Positions 4,153 to 64,000 of a stretch of 64,000 bases of DNA are shown here, piece after piece. Made by a program: the position numbers and the translations under genes. The DNA is from Escherichia phage SUT_E1620, in sequence record OQ939939; one strand, given 5' to 3'. Under the pieces are notes generated by a model, which worked only from the letters and a program-made list of their open reading frames with translations, had not been told where the DNA came from and made no database searches. Positions within the stretch are counted from its first letter, which is position 1. Every line of letters starts with the position of its first letter.

Positions 4153-5052
4153 ATGTACTACTCTCTAATGAGGGAGTCAAAAGTTATAGTTGAGTACGAT
4201 GGCAGGGCTTATCATTTTGATGCCCTGTCAAATTACGATATCAATACGTCCTATGAGGAATTTAAAACTCTTCGTAGGACTATACATCGTAGAACCAACT
4301 ATGCTGACTCTATTATTAATGCACAAACTCCATCTTCAATATCACTGGCTATAAATTTTAGTAATACCCTTACTGAAGCTAACTTCTTTGAATGGATGGG
4401 CTTTGACCGAGAGGGTAACACATTCTTACTACCACTTTATAGTACAAATATTGAGCCAACAATGTTTAATATATACATAGTTAATAAAGATAATAACTGT
4501 GTATACTTTGAGAATTGCTATGTATCTACTGTAGACTTTTCTCTAGATAAAAGCGTTCCTATCCTAAACGTAGGAATTGAATCTGGTAAGTTCTCTGAGG
4601 TGTCTACTTTTACTCCTGCTGGTTCTATTGTTCAGGGTGAAGTTATGTCATATAGTCCTCCTAGAGTATCTACCAACAGTAATGTTTTACCAGCTCTTTT
4701 ATCCGCTTCTATGTCATTCCAGCAACAATGTTCTTGGAGAGAAGATAAAAGCGTATTTGACATAAACAAAATATATAATAATAAGAGAGCTTATGTTAAT
4801 GAAATGAATGCTTCGGCAACAATTGCATTTTACTACACCAAGCGATTTGCTGGTGATATATTTTATAATATTGAACCCGAAACTGACATACCATTAACCA
4901 TCAGAAATGAACATATTTCGATTGATTTTCCTTCAGCACGTATAACAAAACGCCTACAATTCTCGGATATATACAGAGTTGAATGGGATGTAATCCCTAC
5001 TGCAGACTCTGATCCGGTAAGAATCGACTTCTTTGGAGAAATAAAGAAATGA
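4153..5052 (+). CDS. tail protein p140-like
   Basis: 299 aa; AT-rich codon usage; position after tail tube gene as in T5. Confidence 0.45.
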   Translation: MYYSLMRESKVIVEYDGRAYHFDALSNYDINTSYEEFKTLRRTIHRRTNYADSIINAQTPSSISLAINFSNTLTEANFFEWMGFDREGNTFLLPLYSTNIEPTMFNIYIVNKDNNCVYFENCYVSTVDFSLDKSVPILNVGIESGKFSEVSTFTPAGSIVQGEVMSYSPPRVSTNSNVLPALLSASMSFQQQCSWREDKSVFDINKIYNNKRAYVNEMNASATIAFYYTKRFAGDIFYNIEPETDIPLTIRNEHISIDFPSARITKRLQFSDIYRVEWDVIPTADSDPVRIDFFGEIKK

Positions 5053-58446: not shown

Positions 58447-58962
58447 ATGGCTAAGCAGAAAAACGCAAAAACTCAGGCAGCTCCGGCAGTTAAAACTTTC
58501 GCTCAGACCGAAGCCAATCGTAAGGCTCGTCTGGAACGTCATCTGCGTAAGCATCCTACTGATGCTCAGGCTCAGACTGCCCTGAAGTCTGCGGCTCCGG
58601 TTCGCCAGAAGCCGAAGGCCAAGAACTCTACTCGCGCAACTGCTAAGCAGGTTGTGTTCATCAAGGGTGAAGGTCATAAGTCTGTACCGGTAACTCTGAG
58701 CTTTAACGGCGGTGCTGAGATGTTCGCCCGCAACGGTATGGCTCTGAAAGACTACGAAAAAGCAGTCAATCAGAAGCGTAAGCCAATGGCTGACGTAATG
58801 CGTGAATCCCGTGGACAGTTTGGCTCCGTTAAACCGAATATCTTCGGTGTAGAGTACAGCCGTGACAACGTTCGCGCTCTGTGCTATGGTATCGGTATTA
58901 AGTTTACTGGTGCTTCTGATCGTAAATCCGCTAAACCTGCTCGTAAGCGTAAAGCGAAGTAA
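58447..58962 (+). CDS. basic Lys/Ala-rich protein, possible nucleic-acid binding
   Basis: 171 aa; highly basic termini; host-optimal codon usage; terminator hairpin with GAAA loop downstream. Confidence 0.4.
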   Translation: MAKQKNAKTQAAPAVKTFAQTEANRKARLERHLRKHPTDAQAQTALKSAAPVRQKPKAKNSTRATAKQVVFIKGEGHKSVPVTLSFNGGAEMFARNGMALKDYEKAVNQKRKPMADVMRESRGQFGSVKPNIFGVEYSRDNVRALCYGIGIKFTGASDRKSAKPARKRKAK

Positions 58963-58968
58963 TGATTG

Positions 58969-58990
58969 ATGGGGCGAAAGCCCCATATAT
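58969..58990 (+). terminator. terminator-like hairpin with GAAA tetraloop
   Basis: ATGGGGC-GAAA-GCCCCAT followed by AT-rich tract; a similar GGC-GAAA-GCC hairpin near 59248-59262. Confidence 0.4.
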
Positions 58991-59023
58991 TAACTCTTTC
59001 TCTGACTAATTAAGGATATTTTT

Positions 59024-59239
59024 ATGTTCTCTAAGAAACCACGTTCCGTTACTGAAATCGTTGCTTCCTTTACCACTATTACTGATGAACTTCAAGCTCG
59101 TATTGAAGCTGACCAGAAAACTGCTGCTGATATTCAGAAACAGCAAGAAGAACTCGCTCTGAAACTGGCTGAAACCAATAAGAGTGAAAAATCTGCTCAA
59201 ACTATTAAGGAAAATATCCTTAAACTGCTGGGCAAGTAA
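59024..59239 (+). CDS. hypothetical protein
   Basis: 71 aa, helical, host-like codon usage. Confidence 0.4.
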   Translation: MFSKKPRSVTEIVASFTTITDELQARIEADQKTAADIQKQQEELALKLAETNKSEKSAQTIKENILKLLGK

Positions 59240-59280
59240 TTTAAATCAGGGGGCGAAAGCCACTCTTATTTGGAGAAACT

Positions 59281-59493
59281 ATGCGTAACTTCGTTGCAAA
59301 GAATGATTTTAACCGTGCTAGCACTCACAAGTCTGCTAGAGACTACACTCGTCTTTCTAAACATGAGCTTCTAGAAGAAATCATGGAAGAAAACTGGGAT
59401 GTTAGTGAAAATGGAACAGACCTGTTTGAAGAAGAGGAACTTCCTCTGAAAGACCCCAAACAGTGGGAGTCTATTAAAGAGACAGCTCTTTAA
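59281..59493 (+). CDS. hypothetical protein
   Basis: 70 aa. Confidence 0.4.
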   Translation: MRNFVAKNDFNRASTHKSARDYTRLSKHELLEEIMEENWDVSENGTDLFEEEELPLKDPKQWESIKETAL

Positions 59494-59523
59494 TAGTTTT
59501 CTACAACAATAAAGGACATAATT

Positions 59524-60225
59524 ATGAAATTCAAGCCCTTTGGTATGCTGGACATTGAATCTCTAGGTACTCCAGGAAATTGCGGTACTACTCATATTGC
59601 AATGCCTTCTTTCGCTTTTGTAGCGATGCACGGAATTGATAAAGATCCTGATCTGGTATTCGTTACTCTAGACGTTCAAGATCAGCTTAATGCGGGTGCT
59701 AAGGTAACTGCCTCTACTATTGCATTCTGGATGGATCAAGCTAAAAACAGTCCATCTGCGCTCCATATTATGGAGGCTCTAAATGGTCGTAATCCTAAAC
59801 TGATTGCCTTCCGTGATGGTAAGCATCACTGCACTAATGACGTAGGCTCTAATTATGCTGCCTTCTCTATGGCTCAGAACATTATGGAATTGTCTCTAGG
59901 AGATAATGCTCTGTATTACGGCAATGGCCCAGAGTTTGATATGACAATCTACTCTGCAAATACGTTCCATGCCGGAACCAATGAAGAAATAGTTCCGTGG
60001 AAATTCTGGAACTTAGGTAACGTTCGATCTTTCCGTAATCAGTGGATGCAAGCTGGTTATAGCTATAAAGATCTAGAAGCCGAAGGTGCTAGCTGGGCAA
60101 AAGCTAAAATGGAAAAAATGGACACCATTCGTTATGGAATCTACCCTGTGAAGCATGATCCAGCATTCGATGCTTTAGTTGAAAGTTATTGTGTAGCCGT
60201 CATGATCGAAAAAATCAAAATTTGA
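59524..60225 (+). CDS. putative DEDDh-family 3'-5' exonuclease
   Basis: 233 aa; N-terminal MLDIESLG (Exo I D-x-E) and C-terminal HDPAFDA (Exo III H-x4-D). Confidence 0.45.
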   Translation: MKFKPFGMLDIESLGTPGNCGTTHIAMPSFAFVAMHGIDKDPDLVFVTLDVQDQLNAGAKVTASTIAFWMDQAKNSPSALHIMEALNGRNPKLIAFRDGKHHCTNDVGSNYAAFSMAQNIMELSLGDNALYYGNGPEFDMTIYSANTFHAGTNEEIVPWKFWNLGNVRSFRNQWMQAGYSYKDLEAEGASWAKAKMEKMDTIRYGIYPVKHDPAFDALVESYCVAVMIEKIKI

Positions 60226-60226
60226 T

Positions 60227-60255
60227 TTGCTTTCAGCTCCAAAATTCTGTATAAT
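60227..60255 (+). promoter_or_regulatory. T5-type early promoter
   Basis: TTGCTTTCAG...-17-TATAAT followed by TTCATAAATTTGAGAGAACAACAAAAGGAAAACAA leader. Confidence 0.55.
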
Positions 60256-60295
60256 ATATTCATAAATTTGAGAGAACAACAAAAGGAAAACAATT

Positions 60296-60478
60296 ATGCC
60301 AGTATCTAAAAACGTCCGTAAAAATGGTAAAGTAGCAAAACGTAACCTGGGTCTACGTCGTATGGCTGAACGTCAGTCCGGCATCCAGAAAATCTTTAAC
60401 GTACTGAATCGCGCCAATCCGAATATTGATAACAGTTCTGATACTGTTCTGCGCACTCTGCTCGCAATCGGTCTGTAA
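60296..60478 (+). CDS. small basic protein
   Basis: 60 aa; stop codon sits in the loop of a terminator hairpin. Confidence 0.35.
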   Translation: MPVSKNVRKNGKVAKRNLGLRRMAERQSGIQKIFNVLNRANPNIDNSSDTVLRTLLAIGL

Positions 60479-60489
60479 TAGACCGTTTT
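60468..60489 (+). terminator. intrinsic terminator overlapping stop codon of 60-aa gene
   Basis: CGGTCT-GTAAT-AGACCG hairpin followed by T5. Confidence 0.6.
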
Positions 60490-60529
60490 TAAAACAAATT
60501 CAAATCTCAAACTTCATATAAGGAAGCAA

Positions 60530-61171
60530 ATGATGACTACTCGTATCTCTAAAACTCGTGCTCTGGCAACTATCAAGTCTCTGGAAGCTAAAATCCGTAA
60601 AGCTACTGAACAACAGCTTTTGATTGCTGTTGGTGAAGGTAAAGACAAGAATCAAGTTGTCGTTGGTGCTGCAATCGAAGTAGATGCTCTGTCTACTCGT
60701 ATTAAAACTGATTTCCAGTCTCTGCTGGATATGATGACCCAGCGTGATCATCTGAAAGCAGCGCTGATCAAGAGCAATGCTGAAACTGTTGTAGAGATCG
60801 GTTCCCGCTCTATGACTGTTGCGGAAGCAATCGAAGCTAAGCGTTCTATGGAACTCAAAGCTCAGTTGCTGGCTAACATGCGTAAGCAGTTCCATGCTGC
60901 TACTGTTAAGTTTAACACTCAGAAGGCTCAGTTTGATGCCAAGTATGAGCGTTTGCAGGATACCATGGCTACCCGCGATAAGAAGACTTCCGAGGATGAA
61001 GTTAAGATGCAGCTTAACCTGCTGGAACTCAAGAACACTCCGTTCCTGATCGATCCGCTGGAGCTGGAAAAGCTGATCAAGCAACACGACGAAGAATACC
61101 AGGACTTTGCAACCAACGTTGACTTTGTTCTGTCTGAGTCCAACGCCTCTACTTTTATCGAAGTAGAGTAA
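60530..61171 (+). CDS. hypothetical coiled-coil protein
   Basis: 213 aa; host-like codon usage. Confidence 0.45.
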   Translation: MMTTRISKTRALATIKSLEAKIRKATEQQLLIAVGEGKDKNQVVVGAAIEVDALSTRIKTDFQSLLDMMTQRDHLKAALIKSNAETVVEIGSRSMTVAEAIEAKRSMELKAQLLANMRKQFHAATVKFNTQKAQFDAKYERLQDTMATRDKKTSEDEVKMQLNLLELKNTPFLIDPLELEKLIKQHDEEYQDFATNVDFVLSESNASTFIEVE

Positions 61172-61180
61172 TAATTTAAA

Positions 61181-61198
61181 AGACTAGTAAATCGGTAG
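61181..61198 (+). repeat. left arm of 17-bp inverted repeat bounding an ORF-free element
   Basis: AGACTAGTAAATCGGTA; reverse complement of right arm is AGACTAGTAAACCGATA (15/17). Confidence 0.6.
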
Positions 61199-61520
61199 AC
61201 GAAAGCCCAAGCATCTTACCTCGCAGCAGCGGTTGAAATACGAGGTTAAATAAGACCGCTGACCATACTATAAGGTATAATCTATTGGAGATTATGTTTA
61301 TTACATCAGACATTTAATCTGACACGTAAAAACAAAAGGTCGTTGGTAGTACCAACACAACTTCAAAGATCAACGCTCAAGTATGAAAGCTGAAAAGTTA
61401 AAAGCACTCAAACTTCTAACCTTCTAAAGCTAAAAGATGCAAAGTATTCGTTGATGATTCAAACCCTAGATCAAAGGTACATGGCTCATAAGATATGGCC
61501 TGTGGCGCCTCTAGGCTGTT

Positions 61521-61537
61521 TATCGGTTTACTAGTCT
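61521..61537 (+). repeat. right arm of 17-bp inverted repeat
   Basis: TATCGGTTTACTAGTCT. Confidence 0.6.
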
Positions 61538-61555
61538 CTCAATTTAAAAATGTAT

Positions 61556-61584
61556 TTGCTAATTAGTTTAGTTTTCTGTATAAT
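61556..61584 (+). promoter_or_regulatory. T5-type early promoter
   Basis: TTGCTA-17-TATAAT. Confidence 0.55.
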
Positions 61585-61614
61585 ATATTTTTAAATTGAT
61601 GAGACGAGGCTCCT

Positions 61615-61932
61615 ATGACTTTACATATTTTGTTTGATGATGTACGTGACTTAAATGGAATGGATATCATCATCAGAAACCCTGATGTAGCGTACGAAAT
61701 GCTCTATCAGTTACAACTCCAGGGTAATTATCTTTATTTAGATAATGACATGGGTAGTAAAGTAGAAGGCCACCATTTGTTAAGTCGTATCCTAGAAGAT
61801 AAAGATTTGTACCCTAAAAAGGTGGTTTTAGTCACCAGCAATTCTGTTGCTGCAGAAAATATGCGCCAACAGTTAAAAACAGCTGGTTATCAAGAAAACC
61901 CCAATCGTATTGAGTACGATTGGCAGGAGTAA
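61615..61932 (+). CDS. hypothetical protein with receiver-domain-like pattern
   Basis: 105 aa; ILFDDVRD ... YLDNDMG ... VVLVTSNS ... K pattern loosely resembles CheY-like receiver fold; own promoter. Confidence 0.3.
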   Translation: MTLHILFDDVRDLNGMDIIIRNPDVAYEMLYQLQLQGNYLYLDNDMGSKVEGHHLLSRILEDKDLYPKKVVLVTSNSVAAENMRQQLKTAGYQENPNRIEYDWQE

Positions 61933-61936
61933 ATAA

Positions 61937-62461
61937 ATGGAAATAACCCAGGAAAACCTATTATCCTTATTTCACTACAATAGTGAGGAAGGTAGATTGT
62001 ACTGGAAAGCTAATCCCAATAAAGCCCCTGCATGGAATGCCAAATGGGCGGATAAGCCTGCTGGGGCTAAAGATGGGAAATCAATAGTAGTGTCCATTGA
62101 TAATAAATCATACAGACACCATAGATTAGTATTTTTATATCATAAAGGATACTTACCAGTACAAGTTGATCATAAAGATAGGACTAGGCATGACACTAAT
62201 CCTTTCTGCGATAAAATAGAAAATCTCAGAGACGCCACTCATTCACAAAATAATGCTAATAAAGATATTGGGAAGGCCAATACTTCTGGCTATAAAAATG
62301 TGTATAAAACACATCAAGGGTGGAGGGTTATTGTAAAGAAAGATAAAAAGCCTATAGAGGGCGGAACCTTTCTTAGTCTAAAAGAAGCGGTAGATGTAGC
62401 AAATGATTTAAGGTTTGACCTATTCGGTGAATTTGCACTATACCAGCCGTATAAGGAGTGA
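61937..62461 (+). CDS. HNH homing endonuclease with AP2-like domain
   Basis: 174 aa; SYRHHRLVFLYHKGYLPVQVDHKDRTRHDTN HNH motif; C-terminal YKNVYKTHQGWRV AP2-like. Confidence 0.65.
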   Translation: MEITQENLLSLFHYNSEEGRLYWKANPNKAPAWNAKWADKPAGAKDGKSIVVSIDNKSYRHHRLVFLYHKGYLPVQVDHKDRTRHDTNPFCDKIENLRDATHSQNNANKDIGKANTSGYKNVYKTHQGWRVIVKKDKKPIEGGTFLSLKEAVDVANDLRFDLFGEFALYQPYKE

Positions 62462-62465
62462 TACT

Positions 62466-62915
62466 ATGTTGAAAGTATTACTCCTGCTGGCCACTACTAT
62501 AAGTAGCTTACCTGCTTATGCCACACATGATGCTAAAGAGATAGACTGTATTGCAAAAAACATCTATTTTGAGAGTCGTGGTGAGGGCACTAAAGGAATG
62601 ATCGCAGTTGCACAGGTTACTAAAAACCGTGTTAACTCTGGTACTTTTCCTGATTCTTACTGTAAAGTAGTATATCAGTCTAACCAGTTCTCTTGGGTGG
62701 CCAAGAGACCAAAAGTTGATAAAACCGATGAGGCTTGGCAAGTTGCTAAGAATTTAGCTAGAGTGATATACTACGTTGATTTACCACAAGATCCAACACA
62801 TGGAGCGTTATACTTCCATAGTGGTAAAGATAAACCGTACTGGACAAAGAAGTTTAAGAAAACAACGAAGATTCAAGGCCATACGTTCTACAAGCCTGTG
62901 GTTAAGAAAACTTAA
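62466..62915 (+). CDS. secreted SleB-family cell-wall hydrolase
   Basis: signal peptide MLKVLLLLATTISSLPAYA; CIAKNIYFESRGEG...VAQVTKNR...YCKVVYQSNQFSW signature; start set at ATG after AGGAGTG (track ORF begins 17 codons earlier). Confidence 0.6.
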   Translation: MLKVLLLLATTISSLPAYATHDAKEIDCIAKNIYFESRGEGTKGMIAVAQVTKNRVNSGTFPDSYCKVVYQSNQFSWVAKRPKVDKTDEAWQVAKNLARVIYYVDLPQDPTHGALYFHSGKDKPYWTKKFKKTTKIQGHTFYKPVVKKT

Positions 62916-62924
62916 AAATTCGAT

Positions 62925-62953
62925 TGCTTAAAGCCTTAAATTTCTGTATAATA
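62925..62953 (+). promoter_or_regulatory. T5-type early promoter
   Basis: TTGCTT-17-TATAAT followed by TTCATAAATTAATGAGAGG. Confidence 0.55.
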
Positions 62954-62984
62954 CTTTCATAAATTAATGAGAGGAAGCGAAATA

Positions 62985-63155
62985 TGAAATCAGTTGTAAT
63001 TATTGGTGTTAATACTCGTGGTATCCGTACTACGAAAACAGTTAAAACTACTAACGTTGCTGAAATTACTACAAACCCTAAGAAGTTTGATTTCGCTAAA
63101 GTCTCGGCAGTTATGACAGAACAATCTTTTAACCAAGCACTGGGAATTAAATAAT
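62985..63155 (+). CDS. small hypothetical protein (about 56 aa), absent from ORF track
   Basis: ATG preceded by GAGAGGAAG and a T5-type promoter; below the 60-aa track cutoff; coordinates approximate. Confidence 0.3.
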
Positions 63156-63597
63156 GGAAGAGAATATTCTAGATGTTTTGCGTAGGGCTTTGCAGGAATC
63201 TAAGGTTGATGGTTCTGATAAAGAAGTAGCTAAAAGCTACCAGACCATAATCGGAGATCTTCAGCGTGTTGATAAAGACTTCATTACTTCTGAACAGTTT
63301 GTATCTTATCTAAAAGCTCAACTGAAAAGCATTAATCAGACGAAAGCTAAACTTCACGGTCAAGACCTTGATAATTATAGCTTGCAGTCTGCTCAGTATG
63401 AGTATATACTGAACAAATGGCTACAACAGTATCTGCCGCCTCAGTTATCTGATTCTGAGATTCGCAAATACTTTGCAGAATTAGTTAAGTTGAACCCTGG
63501 GATTACAAAAGGTATGCTGATGAAAGCGATTAAGGAAGAGTTTCCTGGTCGTTACGACGGTGGCATTGCTGCTCAGGTTGCTGGCGAATTTAATTAA
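63154..63597 (+). CDS. GatB/YqeY-domain protein
   Basis: 147 aa; C-terminal GITKGMLMKAIKEEFPGRYDGGIAAQVAGEF resembles YqeY/GatB C-terminal domain. Confidence 0.45.
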   Translation: MEENILDVLRRALQESKVDGSDKEVAKSYQTIIGDLQRVDKDFITSEQFVSYLKAQLKSINQTKAKLHGQDLDNYSLQSAQYEYILNKWLQQYLPPQLSDSEIRKYFAELVKLNPGITKGMLMKAIKEEFPGRYDGGIAAQVAGEFN

Positions 63598-63605
63598 AAA
63601 TTGAT

Positions 63606-63634
63606 TTGCTAAACGCCTCAAAATTCTGTATAAT
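63606..63634 (+). promoter_or_regulatory. T5-type early promoter directed into an ORF-free region
   Basis: TTGCTA-17-TATAAT followed by AGATTCATAAATTAGAG. Confidence 0.55.
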
Positions 63635-63889
63635 AGATTCATAAATTAGAGAACAGCGAGCCGATTACGCTGAGTGAGTTTAGTGATTCCTACTAGGATA
63701 GCTATTCCACTGAATAGAGTCGGTGAGTTGGAGACTAGTAAGTACTCTGAGAGAGGCTACGAGCTAACGCTTATTGCTATTGATAGGGAACTGAAAATCT
63801 GCGGAAAACTCGGGAGCTGTCCCGAAATCTCGTAAACTCTTCTCTAGTTTATGTTAGTGGGGTGTCGAACTGACTTATGTGATAACACT

Positions 63890-63961
63890 GCCGTCCTAGT
63901 ATAAACGGTAATATCAAACCGTAACTGGTGGAAGATGCAGGTTCGAATCCTGCGGTCGGAA
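63890..63961 (+). ncRNA. tRNA-like element (canonical T-arm, incomplete cloverleaf)
   Basis: GCAGG-TTCGAAT-CCTGC T-arm, U8-like and GG D-loop-like positions; acceptor pairs only 5 of 7; no canonical anticodon arm found by hand. Confidence 0.25.
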
Positions 63962-64000
63962 AGAATCAGATAACTCGGGCTTATACCGGATAAGCATTCG

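What the first reader, a model, noticed from the sequence alone, without database searches (positions are those of the whole stretch)
63650..64000. Promoter-driven ORF-free region ending in a tRNA-like T-arm
Downstream of a strong T5-type promoter (about 63606-63634) there is no ORF for more than 350 bp. The region has several local hairpins (for example CGGGA-GCTG-TCCCG near 63813-63826) and ends with a canonical T-arm GCAGG-TTCGAAT-CCTGC followed by an acceptor-like strand (about 63937-63961), with U8 and GG D-loop-like positions upstream. A complete cloverleaf could not be folded by hand: the acceptor has 5 of 7 pairs and there is no clean anticodon arm. T5-like phages are known to carry tRNA clusters near their early genes, so this may be the edge of such a cluster, a degenerate tRNA, or a tRNA-like processing signal at the 3' end of a non-coding RNA.
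Basis: partly seen in the sequence, partly recalled or inferred. Interest (0 to 1): 0.5.

Follow-up and report, generated by a model that had tools for sequence, protein, structure and literature searches.

The report
Phage T5 RNAX with tRNA-like domain
The flagged stretch is the first ~40% of rnaX, a non-coding "stable RNA of unknown function" gene annotated in T5-like phages about 20 years ago, and its T-arm belongs to a conserved tRNA-shaped domain that cannot decode and sits on a base-paired stalk inside that large folded RNA.

Summary
The window is 100% identical to Salmonella phage S114, a T5-like Epseptimavirus. The promoter at 63606-63634 is the annotated "P16-17-like" early promoter. 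The ORF-poor stretch runs past the window end to a genuine tRNA-Arg(UCU) about 494 nt beyond position 64000. T5, BF23, DT57C and DT571/2 GenBank records annotate this interval as misc_RNA rnaX, "stable RNA with unknown functions". T5 AY587007 annotates the T-arm element as a tRNA pseudogene. As an entity it is therefore already known.

New here:
- The tRNA-like element (63890-63961; Rfam tRNA 29.3 bits against a cut-off of 29; missed by ARAGORN) keeps its acceptor, D and T arms with compensatory changes. Its "anticodon arm" is non-canonical and differs between lineages.
- It caps a 12-bp stalk formed by its 5' leader and 3' trailer. The stalk is 99-100% paired, and 10 of 12 pairs show double-sided changes.
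- The stalk is kept in five genera or lineages, even where a plain hairpin replaces the tRNA-like cap.
- The whole 0.6-0.9 kb RNA shows many covarying helices and matches no Rfam family except tRNA.

Function is unknown. My best guess is a structured RNA matured by tRNA-processing enzymes.

The parts
63606..63634 (+). Early sigma-70 promoter (-35 TTGCTA, 17-nt spacer, -10 TATAAT), the T5 'P16-17' type. The likely transcription start is A at about 63641.
   Evidence: Consensus scan. Annotated as a promoter in S114 and T5. The start site is inferred from my own knowledge of the near-identical T5 P_N25 downstream sequence TATAATAGATTCATAAATT.
63641..63853 (+). 5' accessory domain of RNAX. It is closed by a 13-bp helix between the transcript's 5' end AUAAAUUAGAGAA (63641-63653) and UUCUCUAGUUUAU (63840-63852). 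The domain is variable: cut down to a short hairpin in T5, DT571/2 and phA11, and replaced by an HNH endonuclease gene in phages 2-3, smaug and KFSSM.
   Evidence: The MFE fold contains the closing helix, z = -1.95. Comparison of 12 lineages.
63674..63835 (+). 53-aa GTG-start ORF, judged not to be a gene. It is called 'hypothetical protein' in the GreteKellenberger record.
   Evidence: Listed and annotated. No Pfam or PHROG hit. Two +1 indels in STG2. The region is absent in T5.
63811..63824 (+). Local hairpin CGGGA-GCUG-UCCCG inside the 5' domain.
   Evidence: Read from the sequence. Conserved in KKP_3711 and the Klebsiella phages; EK80 has the compensated version CCGGA/UCCGG.
63857..63864 (+). 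GUGGGGUG, the 5' strand of a predicted long-range helix. Its partner CACCCUGAC lies about 500 nt downstream, beyond the window end (L001 5819-5827).
   Evidence: RNAalifold on 33 full-length sequences; 99.2% paired, but both strands are nearly invariant so there is no covariation.
63870..63883 (+). 5' (leader) strand of the stalk: CUGA-C-UUAU-G-UGAU.
   Evidence: Pairs with 63965-63978. 12 pairs, 100% paired in 28 distinct sequences with 7 of 12 double-changed. 99.4% paired and 10 of 12 double-changed after adding three distant genera.
63884..63889 (+). Invariant unpaired AACACU between the stalk and the acceptor stem. U at -1 precedes G1.
   Evidence: Invariant columns in A1. Also kept in lineages that lack the tRNA-like cap.
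63890..63961 (+). tRNA-like domain. Acceptor 63890-63896 with 63954-63960 (5 of 7 pairs). D arm 63899-63902 with 63911-63914, G18G19 at 63907-63908. Non-canonical 'anticodon' hairpin 63918-63929 (3 bp plus a 6-nt loop). T arm 63937-63953. A73 at 63961. No encoded CCA.
   Evidence: Rfam RF00005, 29.3 bits. ARAGORN negative. Homologues score 26.6-39 bits. Covariation in the T, D and acceptor stems.
63962..63964 (+). Unpaired AGA. Together with A73 this gives four unpaired nucleotides (AAGA) exactly where NCCA would be in a tRNA.
   Evidence: Invariant AAGA in A1.
63965..63978 (+). 3' (trailer) strand of the stalk: AUCA-G-AUAA-C-UCGG. The C63874 x C63974 and G63879 x G63969 mismatches are conserved.
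   Evidence: Both mismatches are kept in Serratia Kamaji and Providencia PSTCR5. In Pectobacterium DU_PP_V the C x C becomes A-U.
63979..63995 (+). Trailer hairpin GCUUAU-ACCGG-AUAAGC.
   Evidence: 93-95% paired. CG/GC and UA/CG/AU exchanges at two pairs, and a third pair double-changed in A3.
63996..64000 (+). Start of the remaining ~58% of RNAX, which is cut off by the window end. In S114 it continues to L001 5944 and is followed by tRNA-Arg(UCU) at L001 5945-6019.

Best explanation
The region is the 5' ~42% of rnaX, a gene for a large, highly folded non-coding RNA.

Size and extent:
- About 853 nt in this phage, from a start near 63641 to the base before tRNA-Arg.
- 0.57-0.89 kb from the leader to the terminal hairpin in relatives.

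Shown here:
- The interval is orthologous to the annotated rnaX of T5, BF23, DT57C and DT571/2.
- It has no conserved ORF.
- It contains many helices supported by compensatory changes and by G-U pairs, which only make sense for + strand RNA.
- The flagged T-arm belongs to a tRNA-shaped domain (acceptor, D arm with GG, T arm) whose anticodon arm is non-canonical and varies freely between lineages.
- That domain caps a conserved 12-bp helix formed by its own 5' leader and 3' trailer.

Inferred:
- The RNA is made early from the strong P16-17 promoter, as one transcript with tRNA-Arg(UCU) and two downstream genes.
- RNase P cutting at the 5' end of tRNA-Arg creates the RNAX 3' end.
- The RNA's own 5' end is tucked into a helix, which would favour stability.
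- The tRNA-like cap does not decode. It acts as a tRNA-shaped handle, keeping the elbow and the acceptor/T minihelix, with U-1/G+1 and four unpaired nucleotides where NCCA would be. tRNA-processing or tRNA-binding factors would recognise it: either RNase P cuts it, leaving pieces held together by the stalk, or it stays intact as a mimic.
- The cap is an accessory to a core RNA whose own biochemical role is unknown, by analogy with the large phage RNAs GOLLD and ROOL.
For: Identity:
- 100% identical to S114 and related phages.
- rnaX is annotated in T5 AY543070 from promoter P16-17 to tRNA-Arg, in DT571/2, and in DT57C and BF23.
- A tRNA pseudogene is annotated at the homologous site in T5 AY587007, APCEc03 and DU_PP_V.
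- BLAST shows orthology in blocks.

Non-coding:
-.

Structure of the core:
- RNAalifold finds the leader/trailer stalk unprompted.
- On A1: 93.4% of cells paired against 34-46% with slid partners; 15 double-changed pairs against 0-3; 0 of 500 shuffles reach the observed value.
- After adding Pectobacterium, Serratia and Providencia phages: 24 of 38 pairs double-changed against 2-6. The stalk is 99.4% paired with 10 of 12 pairs double-changed, including UUAU/AUAA becoming CGCU/AGCG in Kamaji.

Structure of the full-length RNA:
- 77 pairs, 97.8% paired, 30 double-changed against 2-6 for slid partners, on an alignment not fitted to the structure.

Distribution and context:
- The cap is variable or replaceable.
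- Only one stalked element per genome.
- The core is present in 524 phage records.
- Operon context.
- The depositors' note 'stable RNA' appears. The same T5 record lists seven further stable RNAs of unknown function, three of them labelled tRNA-like.
Against: - No expression, end-mapping or processing data could be examined here. 'Stable RNA' rests on a GenBank note alone.
- Single-sequence folding energy of the core is not better than shuffles (z = -0.29).
- The sequences fall into perhaps 8-10 independent lineages with clear recombination between them, so counts of covarying cells overstate the number of independent events. A3 is fitted to the model.
- The tRNA-like cap has persistent acceptor mismatches (G1.A72, U5.U68), lost its D arm in one metagenomic variant (L061), and is replaced by a hairpin in STG2/EPS7 and Providencia PSTCR5. 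It is therefore dispensable and could be a tolerated relic.
- There is no 3' CCA. Leader/trailer pairing so close to the acceptor could hinder rather than help RNase P.
- The long-range helix 63857-63864 has no covariation.
Confidence: 0.6

Rival explanations
1. The element is a tRNA pseudogene, a decaying copy of a phage tRNA with no function of its own. It is tolerated inside a hairpin tip of RNAX, and the flanks are conserved for RNAX reasons only.
For: - Annotated as a pseudogene or 'tRNA-OTHER' in several records.
- ARAGORN negative and Rfam score at threshold.
- The anticodon arm is degenerate and differs in every lineage.
- Acceptor mismatches are frequent: position 5:68 is unpaired in 21 of 28 sequences and 1:72 in 13 of 28.
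- The D arm is deleted in L061.
- The cap is replaced by plain hairpins in STG2/EPS7 and PSTCR5.
Against: - The T stem is 98% paired with UA/CG and AU/GC exchanges.
- The D stem switches GUAU/AUAU to AGUU/GACU, GGCU/AGCC and GCAU/AUGC.
- The acceptor shows compensated changes: A5-U68 in T5, U5-A68 in BF23, U6-A67 in DT571/2, and C4-G69 and U7-A66 in DU_PP_V.
- The elbow nucleotides (U8, G18G19, TTCRAnT loop) are kept across four or more genera that differ by more than 25% in the flanks. A free-running pseudogene would not keep them.
Confidence: 0.2
2. It is a functional tRNA or an aminoacylatable tRNA-like RNA. After excision and CCA addition it would decode or carry an amino acid. Alternatively it would act as a decoy or replacement against host tRNA-targeting defence nucleases, as shown for other T5 tRNAs.
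For: - Rfam tRNA hits of 26.6-39 bits, with DT571/2 scoring 39 bits; T5 has a fully paired acceptor.
- Some annotation pipelines call it tRNA-Ser(ACT), tRNA-Sec(TCA) or tRNA-Pro(CGG).
- T5-like phage tRNAs are reported to counter tRNA-cleaving defences (PMC11464382 listed; statements and references in PMC10644984).
Against: - No lineage has a 5-bp stem with a 7-nt anticodon loop. The forms seen are 3-4 bp with a 6-nt loop, 6 bp with a tetraloop, a 20-nt extended arm, or a truncated arm.
- The 'anticodon' assignments disagree between records.
- No CCA is encoded, whereas the neighbouring tRNA-Arg encodes CCA.
- The ends are locked in a conserved stalk.
- A decoy against anticodon nucleases would need a conserved anticodon loop, which is the least conserved part.
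Confidence: 0.07
3. The region is an ordinary long 5' untranslated leader or a set of small protein genes, or a DNA-level element (homing-endonuclease target, origin), rather than a structured RNA.
For: - Many genome records place 'hypothetical protein' CDSs across it.
- The transcript continues into two protein genes before the annotated terminator.
- HNH endonuclease genes are inserted at both borders in relatives.
Against: - The predicted CDSs differ from record to record, have no family match, and are broken by indels.
- Compensatory base-pair changes and abundant G-U pairs (for example UG in 20 of 29 sequences at one stalk pair) fit + strand RNA and not DNA or protein constraints.
- Conserved blocks alternate with variable hairpin-like inserts.
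Confidence: 0.05
4. The leader/trailer stalk is a double-strand processing site, RNase III type like the stems that flank rRNAs. The tRNA-like cap would be excised as an intervening piece, leaving a fragmented but base-paired RNAX.
For: - A 14-position stalk with two conserved 1x1 mismatches, an internal loop and a 7-bp acceptor-like stem give more than 20 stacked positions.
- The cap is replaceable, as intervening sequences are.
- The precedent of RNase III stems around rRNA and T7 early RNAs comes from my own knowledge.
Against: - No cleavage data.
- The helix is short and interrupted for RNase III.
- The invariant loops AACACU/AAGA and the conserved mismatches suggest specific recognition or tertiary contacts rather than a generic duplex.
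Confidence: 0.08

Closest known systems
rnaX (RNAX, 'stable RNA with unknown functions') of phage T5 (AY543070), BF23, DT57C and DT571/2
   Same: - Same position: after the YqeY-like gene and promoter P16-17, and directly before tRNA-Arg(UCU).
- The core is 83-85% identical and the 3' blocks 80-95% identical.
- This is the same gene.
   Different: - The S114-type copy carries an extra ~180-nt 5' domain (63654-63834) that T5 lacks, and lacks an 82-nt duplication present in T5.
- The records give no structure or function.
Canonical tRNA (Rfam RF00005)
   Same: - Native order of acceptor, D arm with G18G19, T arm with a TTCGAAT loop, U8, and discriminator A73.
- Scores at or above the Rfam cut-off in most lineages.
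   Different: - No canonical anticodon arm, no encoded CCA, and acceptor mismatches.
- The ends are continuous with a conserved stalk.
- ARAGORN rejects it.
GOLLD and ROOL large ornate RNAs of phages and prophages
   Same: - Several hundred nucleotides long, encoded by phages, and next to tRNA genes.
- Conserved blocks are separated by variable inserts.
- GOLLD sometimes carries tRNAs within a linker region (PMC12286853; PMC5737381).
   Different: - No match to the GOLLD or ROOL covariance models, and different conserved motifs.
- Oligomeric cage formation is untested.
- Hosts are enterobacterial lytic T5-like phages.
YrlA / bacterial Y RNAs (tRNA-like domain on a protein-binding stem)
   Same: A tRNA-shaped module with a conserved elbow but no free CCA end, joined to a conserved helix (resemblance from my own knowledge of Chen et al. 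2014 and Wang et al. 2018).
   Different: - In YrlA, as I recall it, the stem leaves from the anticodon-stem side and the module order is permuted. Here the stalk leaves from the acceptor end in native tRNA order.
- No Rfam Y RNA hit.
- No Ro/Rsr gene nearby.
Other T5 'stable RNAs with unknown functions' (RNAI, RNAIII, RNAIV, RNA1, RNA2, RNA2H, RNA3), and T4 species 1/2 RNAs
   Same: - Small non-coding RNAs encoded among phage tRNA genes, some labelled tRNA-like.
- Co-transcribed with tRNAs. The T4 case is from my own knowledge.
   Different: - They are 73-172 nt, whereas RNAX is 0.6-0.9 kb.
- None of them carries the leader/trailer stalk.
mascRNA-type tRNA-like 3'-end processing signals (MALAT1 / MEN-beta)
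   Same: A tRNA-like fold inside a longer non-coding transcript that could recruit RNase P (my own knowledge).
   Different: - The element is near the 5' end of RNAX, not at its 3' end.
- The true 3'-end maker is more likely the genuine tRNA-Arg downstream.

Membership tests
rnaX of T5-like phages | Lies between the promoter P16-17 / YqeY-like gene and tRNA-Arg(UCU) | tested here: met
   S114 annotation and ARAGORN. Same order in T5 and DT571/2.
rnaX of T5-like phages | Sequence homology to the annotated rnaX | tested here: met
   BLAST blocks at 79-95% identity to T5 and DT571/2. The covariance model built from A1 (which includes these sequences) scores 158.8 bits in the window and 178.1 bits in T5.
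rnaX of T5-like phages | Accumulates as a stable RNA in infected cells | not testable with these tools
   Only the depositors' note is available. No paper was found.
tRNA (RF00005) | Covariance-model score at or above the gathering score | tested here: inconclusive
   29.3 bits against 29 in the window. Relatives score 39, 33 and 26.6 bits.
tRNA (RF00005) | 7-bp acceptor stem | tested here: not met
   5 of 7 pairs in the window (G1.A72, U5.U68). T5 has 7 of 7.
tRNA (RF00005) | D arm with G18G19, and T arm with a T-Psi-C-type loop | tested here: met
tRNA (RF00005) | 5-bp anticodon stem with a 7-nt loop | tested here: not met
   3 bp plus the 6-nt loop GUAACU here. Other lineages have other non-canonical forms. 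ARAGORN finds no tRNA.
tRNA (RF00005) | 3' CCA, encoded or added, and aminoacylation | not testable with these tools
   Not encoded: AAGA follows the acceptor. Addition and charging cannot be tested here.
GOLLD (Rfam) / ROOL (Rfam) | Match to the family covariance model | tested here: not met
   No hit at E up to 5 on S114 RNAX, nor at E up to 1 on the DT571/2, Klebsiella K7_rec14 and 26175III loci.
GOLLD / ROOL | Large, multi-helix, phage-borne RNA next to tRNAs | tested here: met
   Literature description. This is a resemblance in kind, not in sequence.
tmRNA | tRNA-like domain formed by the RNA's 5' and 3' ends, plus a tag reading frame | tested here: not met
   ARAGORN finds no tmRNA. No Rfam tmRNA hit. 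The tRNA-like domain is contiguous and internal.
YrlA / Y RNA | Match to an Rfam Y RNA model and a neighbouring Ro (Rsr) gene | tested here: not met
   No such hit. No Ro-like gene within 10 kb of annotation.

The most novel reading that the evidence does not exclude
RNAX is an undescribed class of large (0.6-0.9 kb) ornate structured RNA.
- It is conserved across Demerecviridae: Tequintavirus, Epseptimavirus, Sugarlandvirus, Hongcheonvirus, Priunavirus and a Serratia phage.
- Its hallmark is a covarying stalk with invariant AACACU/AAGA loops and C x C and G x G mismatches, usually capped by a non-decoding tRNA mimic.
- Like GOLLD and ROOL, it would have a sophisticated RNA-based role in infection, for example engaging tRNA or translation machinery or forming higher-order assemblies. 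It is absent from Rfam and from the searchable literature.
Probability: 0.45. Interest if true: 0.75.

Novelty: already known. Interest (0 to 1): 0.5.

Why it matters
T5 is a classic model phage, yet its rnaX gene has only a one-line database note. This analysis shows three things:
- The gene is conserved in more than 500 sequenced phages, including at least five genera or lineages.
- It folds into many covariation-supported helices.
- It embeds a tRNA-shaped domain on a conserved stalk.

It is therefore a candidate relative-in-kind of the enigmatic large phage RNAs GOLLD and ROOL, but in a genetically tractable E. coli/Salmonella system. That makes an old question, what the non-tRNA stable RNAs in phage tRNA regions do, directly testable.

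There is also a practical point for annotation. Pipelines currently label this locus inconsistently as tRNA-Ser, tRNA-Sec, tRNA-Pro, a pseudo-tRNA, or a string of hypothetical proteins.

Tried and rejected
- **ARAGORN** on the window and on S114: it finds only the true tRNAs and no tmRNA.
- **Rfam** at permissive E-values on four lineages: only tRNA hits, and the remaining hits are noise such as plastid UTR motifs.
- **Coding reading** of the 53-aa ORF: rejected.
- **'ATG followed by a stop codon' in the leader** (ATG-TGA, TAG or TAA). I first took this for a start-stop mini-ORF. It is explained by base pairing of these positions with the trailer.
- **A local hairpin in the leader** (GUC-GAACU-GAC). 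Klebsiella and smaug sequences do not support it, and the leader/trailer stalk replaces it.
- **A short outer helix** (A1 columns 4-7 with 161-164). It competes with a long-range pairing to CACCYUGAC about 500 nt downstream. Neither can be settled because the bases do not vary.
- **Single-sequence thermodynamics.** Uninformative for the core (z = -0.29).
- **Literature searches** for RNAX, T5 stable RNA, or T5-like tRNA-like or pseudo-tRNA elements: nothing relevant in the searchable library. Older subscription papers on T5 stable RNAs could not be searched.
- **The one metagenome scan**: mostly the same lineages plus recombinants.
- **Search for further stalked elements** in the T5 tRNA region: none found.
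Full report
**What is in the sequence**

- A sigma-70-type promoter, TTGCTA-17-TATAAT, lies at 63606-63634.
- No long ORF follows. The largest is a GTG-start 53-aa frame at 63674-63835.
- The hairpin CGGGA-GCUG-UCCCG is at 63811-63824.
- A perfect T arm, GCAGG-UUCGAAU-CCUGC, is at 63937-63953.
- It is followed by GGUCGGA, which pairs with GCCGUCC (63890-63896) at 5 of 7 positions.

ARAGORN finds no tRNA anywhere in the 64-kb window. Rfam's tRNA model does match 63890-63961, but only at 29.3 bits against a cut-off of 29 (E = 0.049 for the window). It treats the anticodon arm as an unaligned 18-nt insert. On the window alone the tRNA-like call would be marginal.

**Where the window comes from and what lies beyond its end**

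The stretch is 100% identical to Salmonella phage S114 and other Epseptimavirus genomes, and 304 phage records match it closely.

In S114 the promoter is annotated 'Putative P16-17-like promoter'. The unannotated stretch runs about 840 nt to a genuine tRNA-Arg(UCU), which scores 49.3 bits and is found by ARAGORN. That tRNA starts about 494 nt beyond the window end. Two protein genes and a bidirectional terminator follow.

**It is already annotated**

- The T5 record AY543070 annotates exactly this interval, from 'promoter P 16-17' to tRNA-Arg, as misc_RNA rnaX, 'RNAX, stable RNA with unknown functions' (719 nt).
- The same label appears in DT571/2 (636 nt), DT57C and the BF23 tRNA-region fragment.
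- APCEc03 calls it 'tRNA-Pseudo-TAA'.
- Other records call it tRNA-OTHER, tRNA-Ser(ACT), tRNA-Sec(TCA) or tRNA-Pro(CGG).
- The T5 record also lists seven further 'stable RNAs with unknown functions' in the main tRNA cluster, three of them labelled tRNA-like.

Non-tRNA stable RNAs are therefore a known, if unexplained, feature of this phage. I found no paper on RNAX in the searchable library, and the 2023 BF23 genome paper does not mention it.

**Modular architecture**

BLAST of the S114 interval against 15 fetched loci and alignments show conserved blocks separated by variable segments.
- The 5' ~180 nt inside the finding (63654-63834) is accessory. It is present in S114, 26175III, STG2 and, diverged, in APCEc03 and KKP_3711.
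- T5, DT571/2 and phA11 reduce it to a short hairpin.
- Phages 2-3, smaug and KFSSM replace it with an HNH homing-endonuclease gene.
- Where present, the domain is closed by pairing of the transcript's first 13 nt (AUAAAUUAGAGAA, 63641-63653) with UUCUCUAGUUUAU (63840-63852).
- The start at about 63641 is my inference from the near identity of the -10 and downstream sequence to T5 promoter P_N25 (own knowledge).
- The 53-aa ORF lies in this accessory domain, has no Pfam or PHROG relative, and is frame-shifted twice in STG2. I treat it as not coding.

**The core: a tRNA-shaped cap on a stalk**

The most widely conserved block is 63855-64000, found in 524 phage records. I aligned 28 distinct versions (A1).

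The cloverleaf stems are supported:
- T stem: 98% paired, with UA/CG at one pair (17 and 11 sequences) and AU/GC at another.
- D stem: alternative forms GUAU/AUAU, AGUU/GACU and GGCU/AGCC.
- Acceptor: compensated A5-U68 in T5, U5-A68 in BF23 and U6-A67 in DT571/2. Most sequences, including the window, keep U5.U68, and half have G1.A72.

The 'anticodon arm' is never canonical and differs by lineage:
- 3-4 bp with the 6-nt loop GUAACU or UUCACC;
- 6 bp with a tetraloop (AmPh_EK80);
- a long extended arm whose inner hairpin itself covaries, GGGG/CCCC against GGAGA/UCUCC (Sugarlandvirus and metagenomic L055);
- a truncated arm (KFSSM).

RNAalifold then predicted, without prompting, that the 35-nt leader pairs with the trailer. 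Positions 63870-63883 pair with 63965-63978 as three 4-bp segments separated by invariant C x C and G x G mismatches.
- This stalk is 100% paired in all 28 sequences, and 7 of 12 pairs change on both sides.
- The pairing explains a pattern I had first misread as an ATG followed by a stop codon.
- Between stalk and acceptor lie invariant unpaired AACACU (5' side, ending in U-1) and AAGA (3' side, exactly the four positions of NCCA).
- A covarying hairpin (63979-63995) follows.
- For the whole core, 93.4% of cells pair against 34-46% when partners are slid by 1-3 columns. 15 pairs show double changes against 0-3, and 0 of 500 shuffles reach the observed values.

**Breadth**

A covariance model of the core (R1) finds one copy in the window (158.8 bits, cut by the window end) and one per genome elsewhere. 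It also finds the element in more distant Demerecviridae.
- Pectobacterium phage DU_PP_V: 91.9 bits. The same layout, with an annotated tRNA pseudogene and then tRNA-Arg.
- Serratia phage Kamaji: 110.5 bits. The otherwise invariant stalk segment UUAU/AUAA becomes CGCU/AGCG.
- Providencia phage PSTCR5: 54.8 bits. The stalk, both mismatches and the AACACU/AAGA loops are kept, but a 7-bp hairpin replaces the tRNA-like cap.
- Within Epseptimavirus, STG2 and EPS7 likewise carry an unrelated hairpin instead of the cap.

With these added (A3, fitted to the model):
- 24 of 38 pairs show double changes against 2-6 for slid partners.
- The stalk is 99.4% paired, with 10 of 12 pairs double-changed.
- Many pairs are G-U. 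On the other strand these would be A.C mismatches, so the constraint is on + strand RNA.

The stalk and its loops are thus the constant feature. The tRNA-shaped cap is frequent, old and under structural selection where present, but replaceable.

**The rest of RNAX**

From the leader to a 17-bp AU-rich terminal hairpin just before tRNA-Arg, 46 distinct sequences span 566-888 nt.

On a MAFFT alignment of 33 of them, not fitted to any structure, RNAalifold keeps 77 pairs in 13 helices:
- 97.8% are paired, against 40-48% for slid partners.
- 30 pairs are double-changed, against 2-6 for slid partners.
- 0 of 500 shuffles reach the observed values.

These include long-range helices. One joins GUGGGGUG (63857-63864) to CACCYUGAC about 500 nt downstream, but it is invariant and therefore unproven.

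Invariant motifs such as GGAGUCAUGACC and AGUCACCYUGACUUAAACUGGAA are separated by variable hairpin-like inserts. A less conservative fold of all 46 suggests about 35 helices.

No Rfam family other than tRNA matches any lineage.

**Interpretation**

Identity is firm. The finding is the 5' ~42% of rnaX, a structured non-coding RNA gene.

How it works is inferred. The RNA is transcribed early together with tRNA-Arg. RNase P cutting at that tRNA would define the RNAX 3' end, and the paired 5' end would favour stability.

The cap cannot decode and encodes no CCA. What it preserves is the tRNA elbow and the acceptor/T minihelix, plus U-1/G+1. These are the parts read by RNase P, RNase Z, the CCA-adding enzyme and other tRNA-binding proteins. 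I therefore favour a 'tRNA-shaped handle' on a core RNA of unknown biochemical role, either cleaved or left intact.

Rivals:
- A tolerated pseudogene. Arguments for: acceptor mismatches, loss of the D arm in L061, and replacement by a hairpin in two lineages.
- A decoy or functional tRNA. Argument against: the anticodon loop is the least conserved part.
- An RNase III-type processing stem.
- A coding or DNA-level element. Arguments against: covariation, G-U pairs and indels.

Caveats:
- No expression data were available.
- Single-sequence energies are unremarkable.
- The sequences represent perhaps 8-10 lineages that recombine, so cell counts overstate independent events.

**Comparison with known systems**

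- As an entity it is the annotated rnaX, so already known.
- In kind it most resembles GOLLD and ROOL: large phage or prophage RNAs near tRNA islands, with GOLLD sometimes carrying tRNAs in a linker (PMC12286853; PMC5737381). It does not match their models.
- It resembles YrlA in having a tRNA mimic without a CCA end joined to a conserved helix. The topology differs, and no Ro gene or model hit is present.
- It is not a tmRNA.

**Verdict**

The feature is already annotated but essentially uncharacterised. The stalked tRNA mimic, and the evidence that RNAX is a large covarying RNA conserved across Demerecviridae, appear not to be described in anything I could search. They give concrete experiments.

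Noticed in passing
window 63154-63597: The gene directly upstream of the RNAX promoter encodes a 147-aa protein. It matches PHROG 1460 'tRNA amidotransferase' (E = 2.8e-46) and weakly matches Pfam YqeY (25.4 bits, below the cut-off of 27). YqeY/GatB tail domains bind tRNA (own knowledge), so it is a candidate partner of the tRNA-like domain. In the Klebsiella Sugarlandvirus loci fetched (SEL21, K7_rec14, Spivey), the endolysin gene, not this gene, directly precedes the RNAX region.
   Followed up: partly
L014 643-1125; L005 1043-1525; L045 715-1197; L012 1608-2117; L013 1606-2115; L044 1837-2346; L046 1928-2404: Relatives carry inserted genes at two hot spots of rnaX. An HNH homing endonuclease replaces the 5' domain, and a ~160-170-aa CDS is inserted between the terminal hairpin and tRNA-Arg. 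Core sequences also look recombinant: L055 has T5 flanks with a Sugarlandvirus-type cap, and L050 and L056 have mixed T-arm halves giving an A.C mismatch.
   Followed up: partly
L009 (Klebsiella phage SEL21, PV402694) and other records: Annotation artefacts over this locus. SEL21 has a 'tRNA-Ser' feature spanning 7.7 kb. The tRNA-like element is labelled tRNA-Pro(CGG), tRNA-Sec(TCA), tRNA-Ser(ACT), tRNA-OTHER or a pseudogene in different records. Strings of short 'hypothetical protein' CDSs are laid over RNAX (for example GreteKellenberger bas26_0077/0078 and Klebsiella phages).
   Followed up: yes
L006 (T5 AY587007) about 4780-4870 minus strand; also L052: T5 and one metagenomic contig carry an ~82-nt insertion that duplicates the invariant motif AGUCACCUUGACUUAAACUGGAA. 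They therefore have two copies of the predicted 3' partner of the long-range helix.
   Followed up: no
L066 (T5 AY543070 30284-33949): The T5 record annotates seven further 'stable RNAs with unknown functions' among the tRNA genes: RNAIII, RNAI, RNA1, RNA2H, RNAIV, RNA2 and RNA3, three of them labelled tRNA-like. None carries the RNAX-type stalk.
   Followed up: partly
L001 376-425, 2216-2272, 4375-4417, 7425-7452, 9261-9293, 9611-9652 (window equivalents about 58925-63000 for the first three): The first ~55 nt of the query (promoter plus initial transcribed sequence) recur at 82-89% identity at six other places in the 10-kb S114 locus. This is the repeated T5 early-promoter module. T5 AY587007 labels some of them 'repeat c'.
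   Followed up: no
window 62984-63154: The 56-aa ORF two genes upstream of the promoter is a full-length match to Pfam DUF7616 (E = 5.6e-34), a family of unknown function.
   Followed up: no
L001 5901-5940 (just beyond the window end): A 17-bp AU-rich hairpin, GGUAUCUUUAAGAGCU...AGUUCUUAAAAAUACC, sits immediately before tRNA-Arg. It is the most widely conserved piece by BLAST, at 92-100% identity even in Pectobacterium and Klebsiella phages. Its role (processing site, protein site or 3' stabiliser) is unknown.
   Followed up: partly
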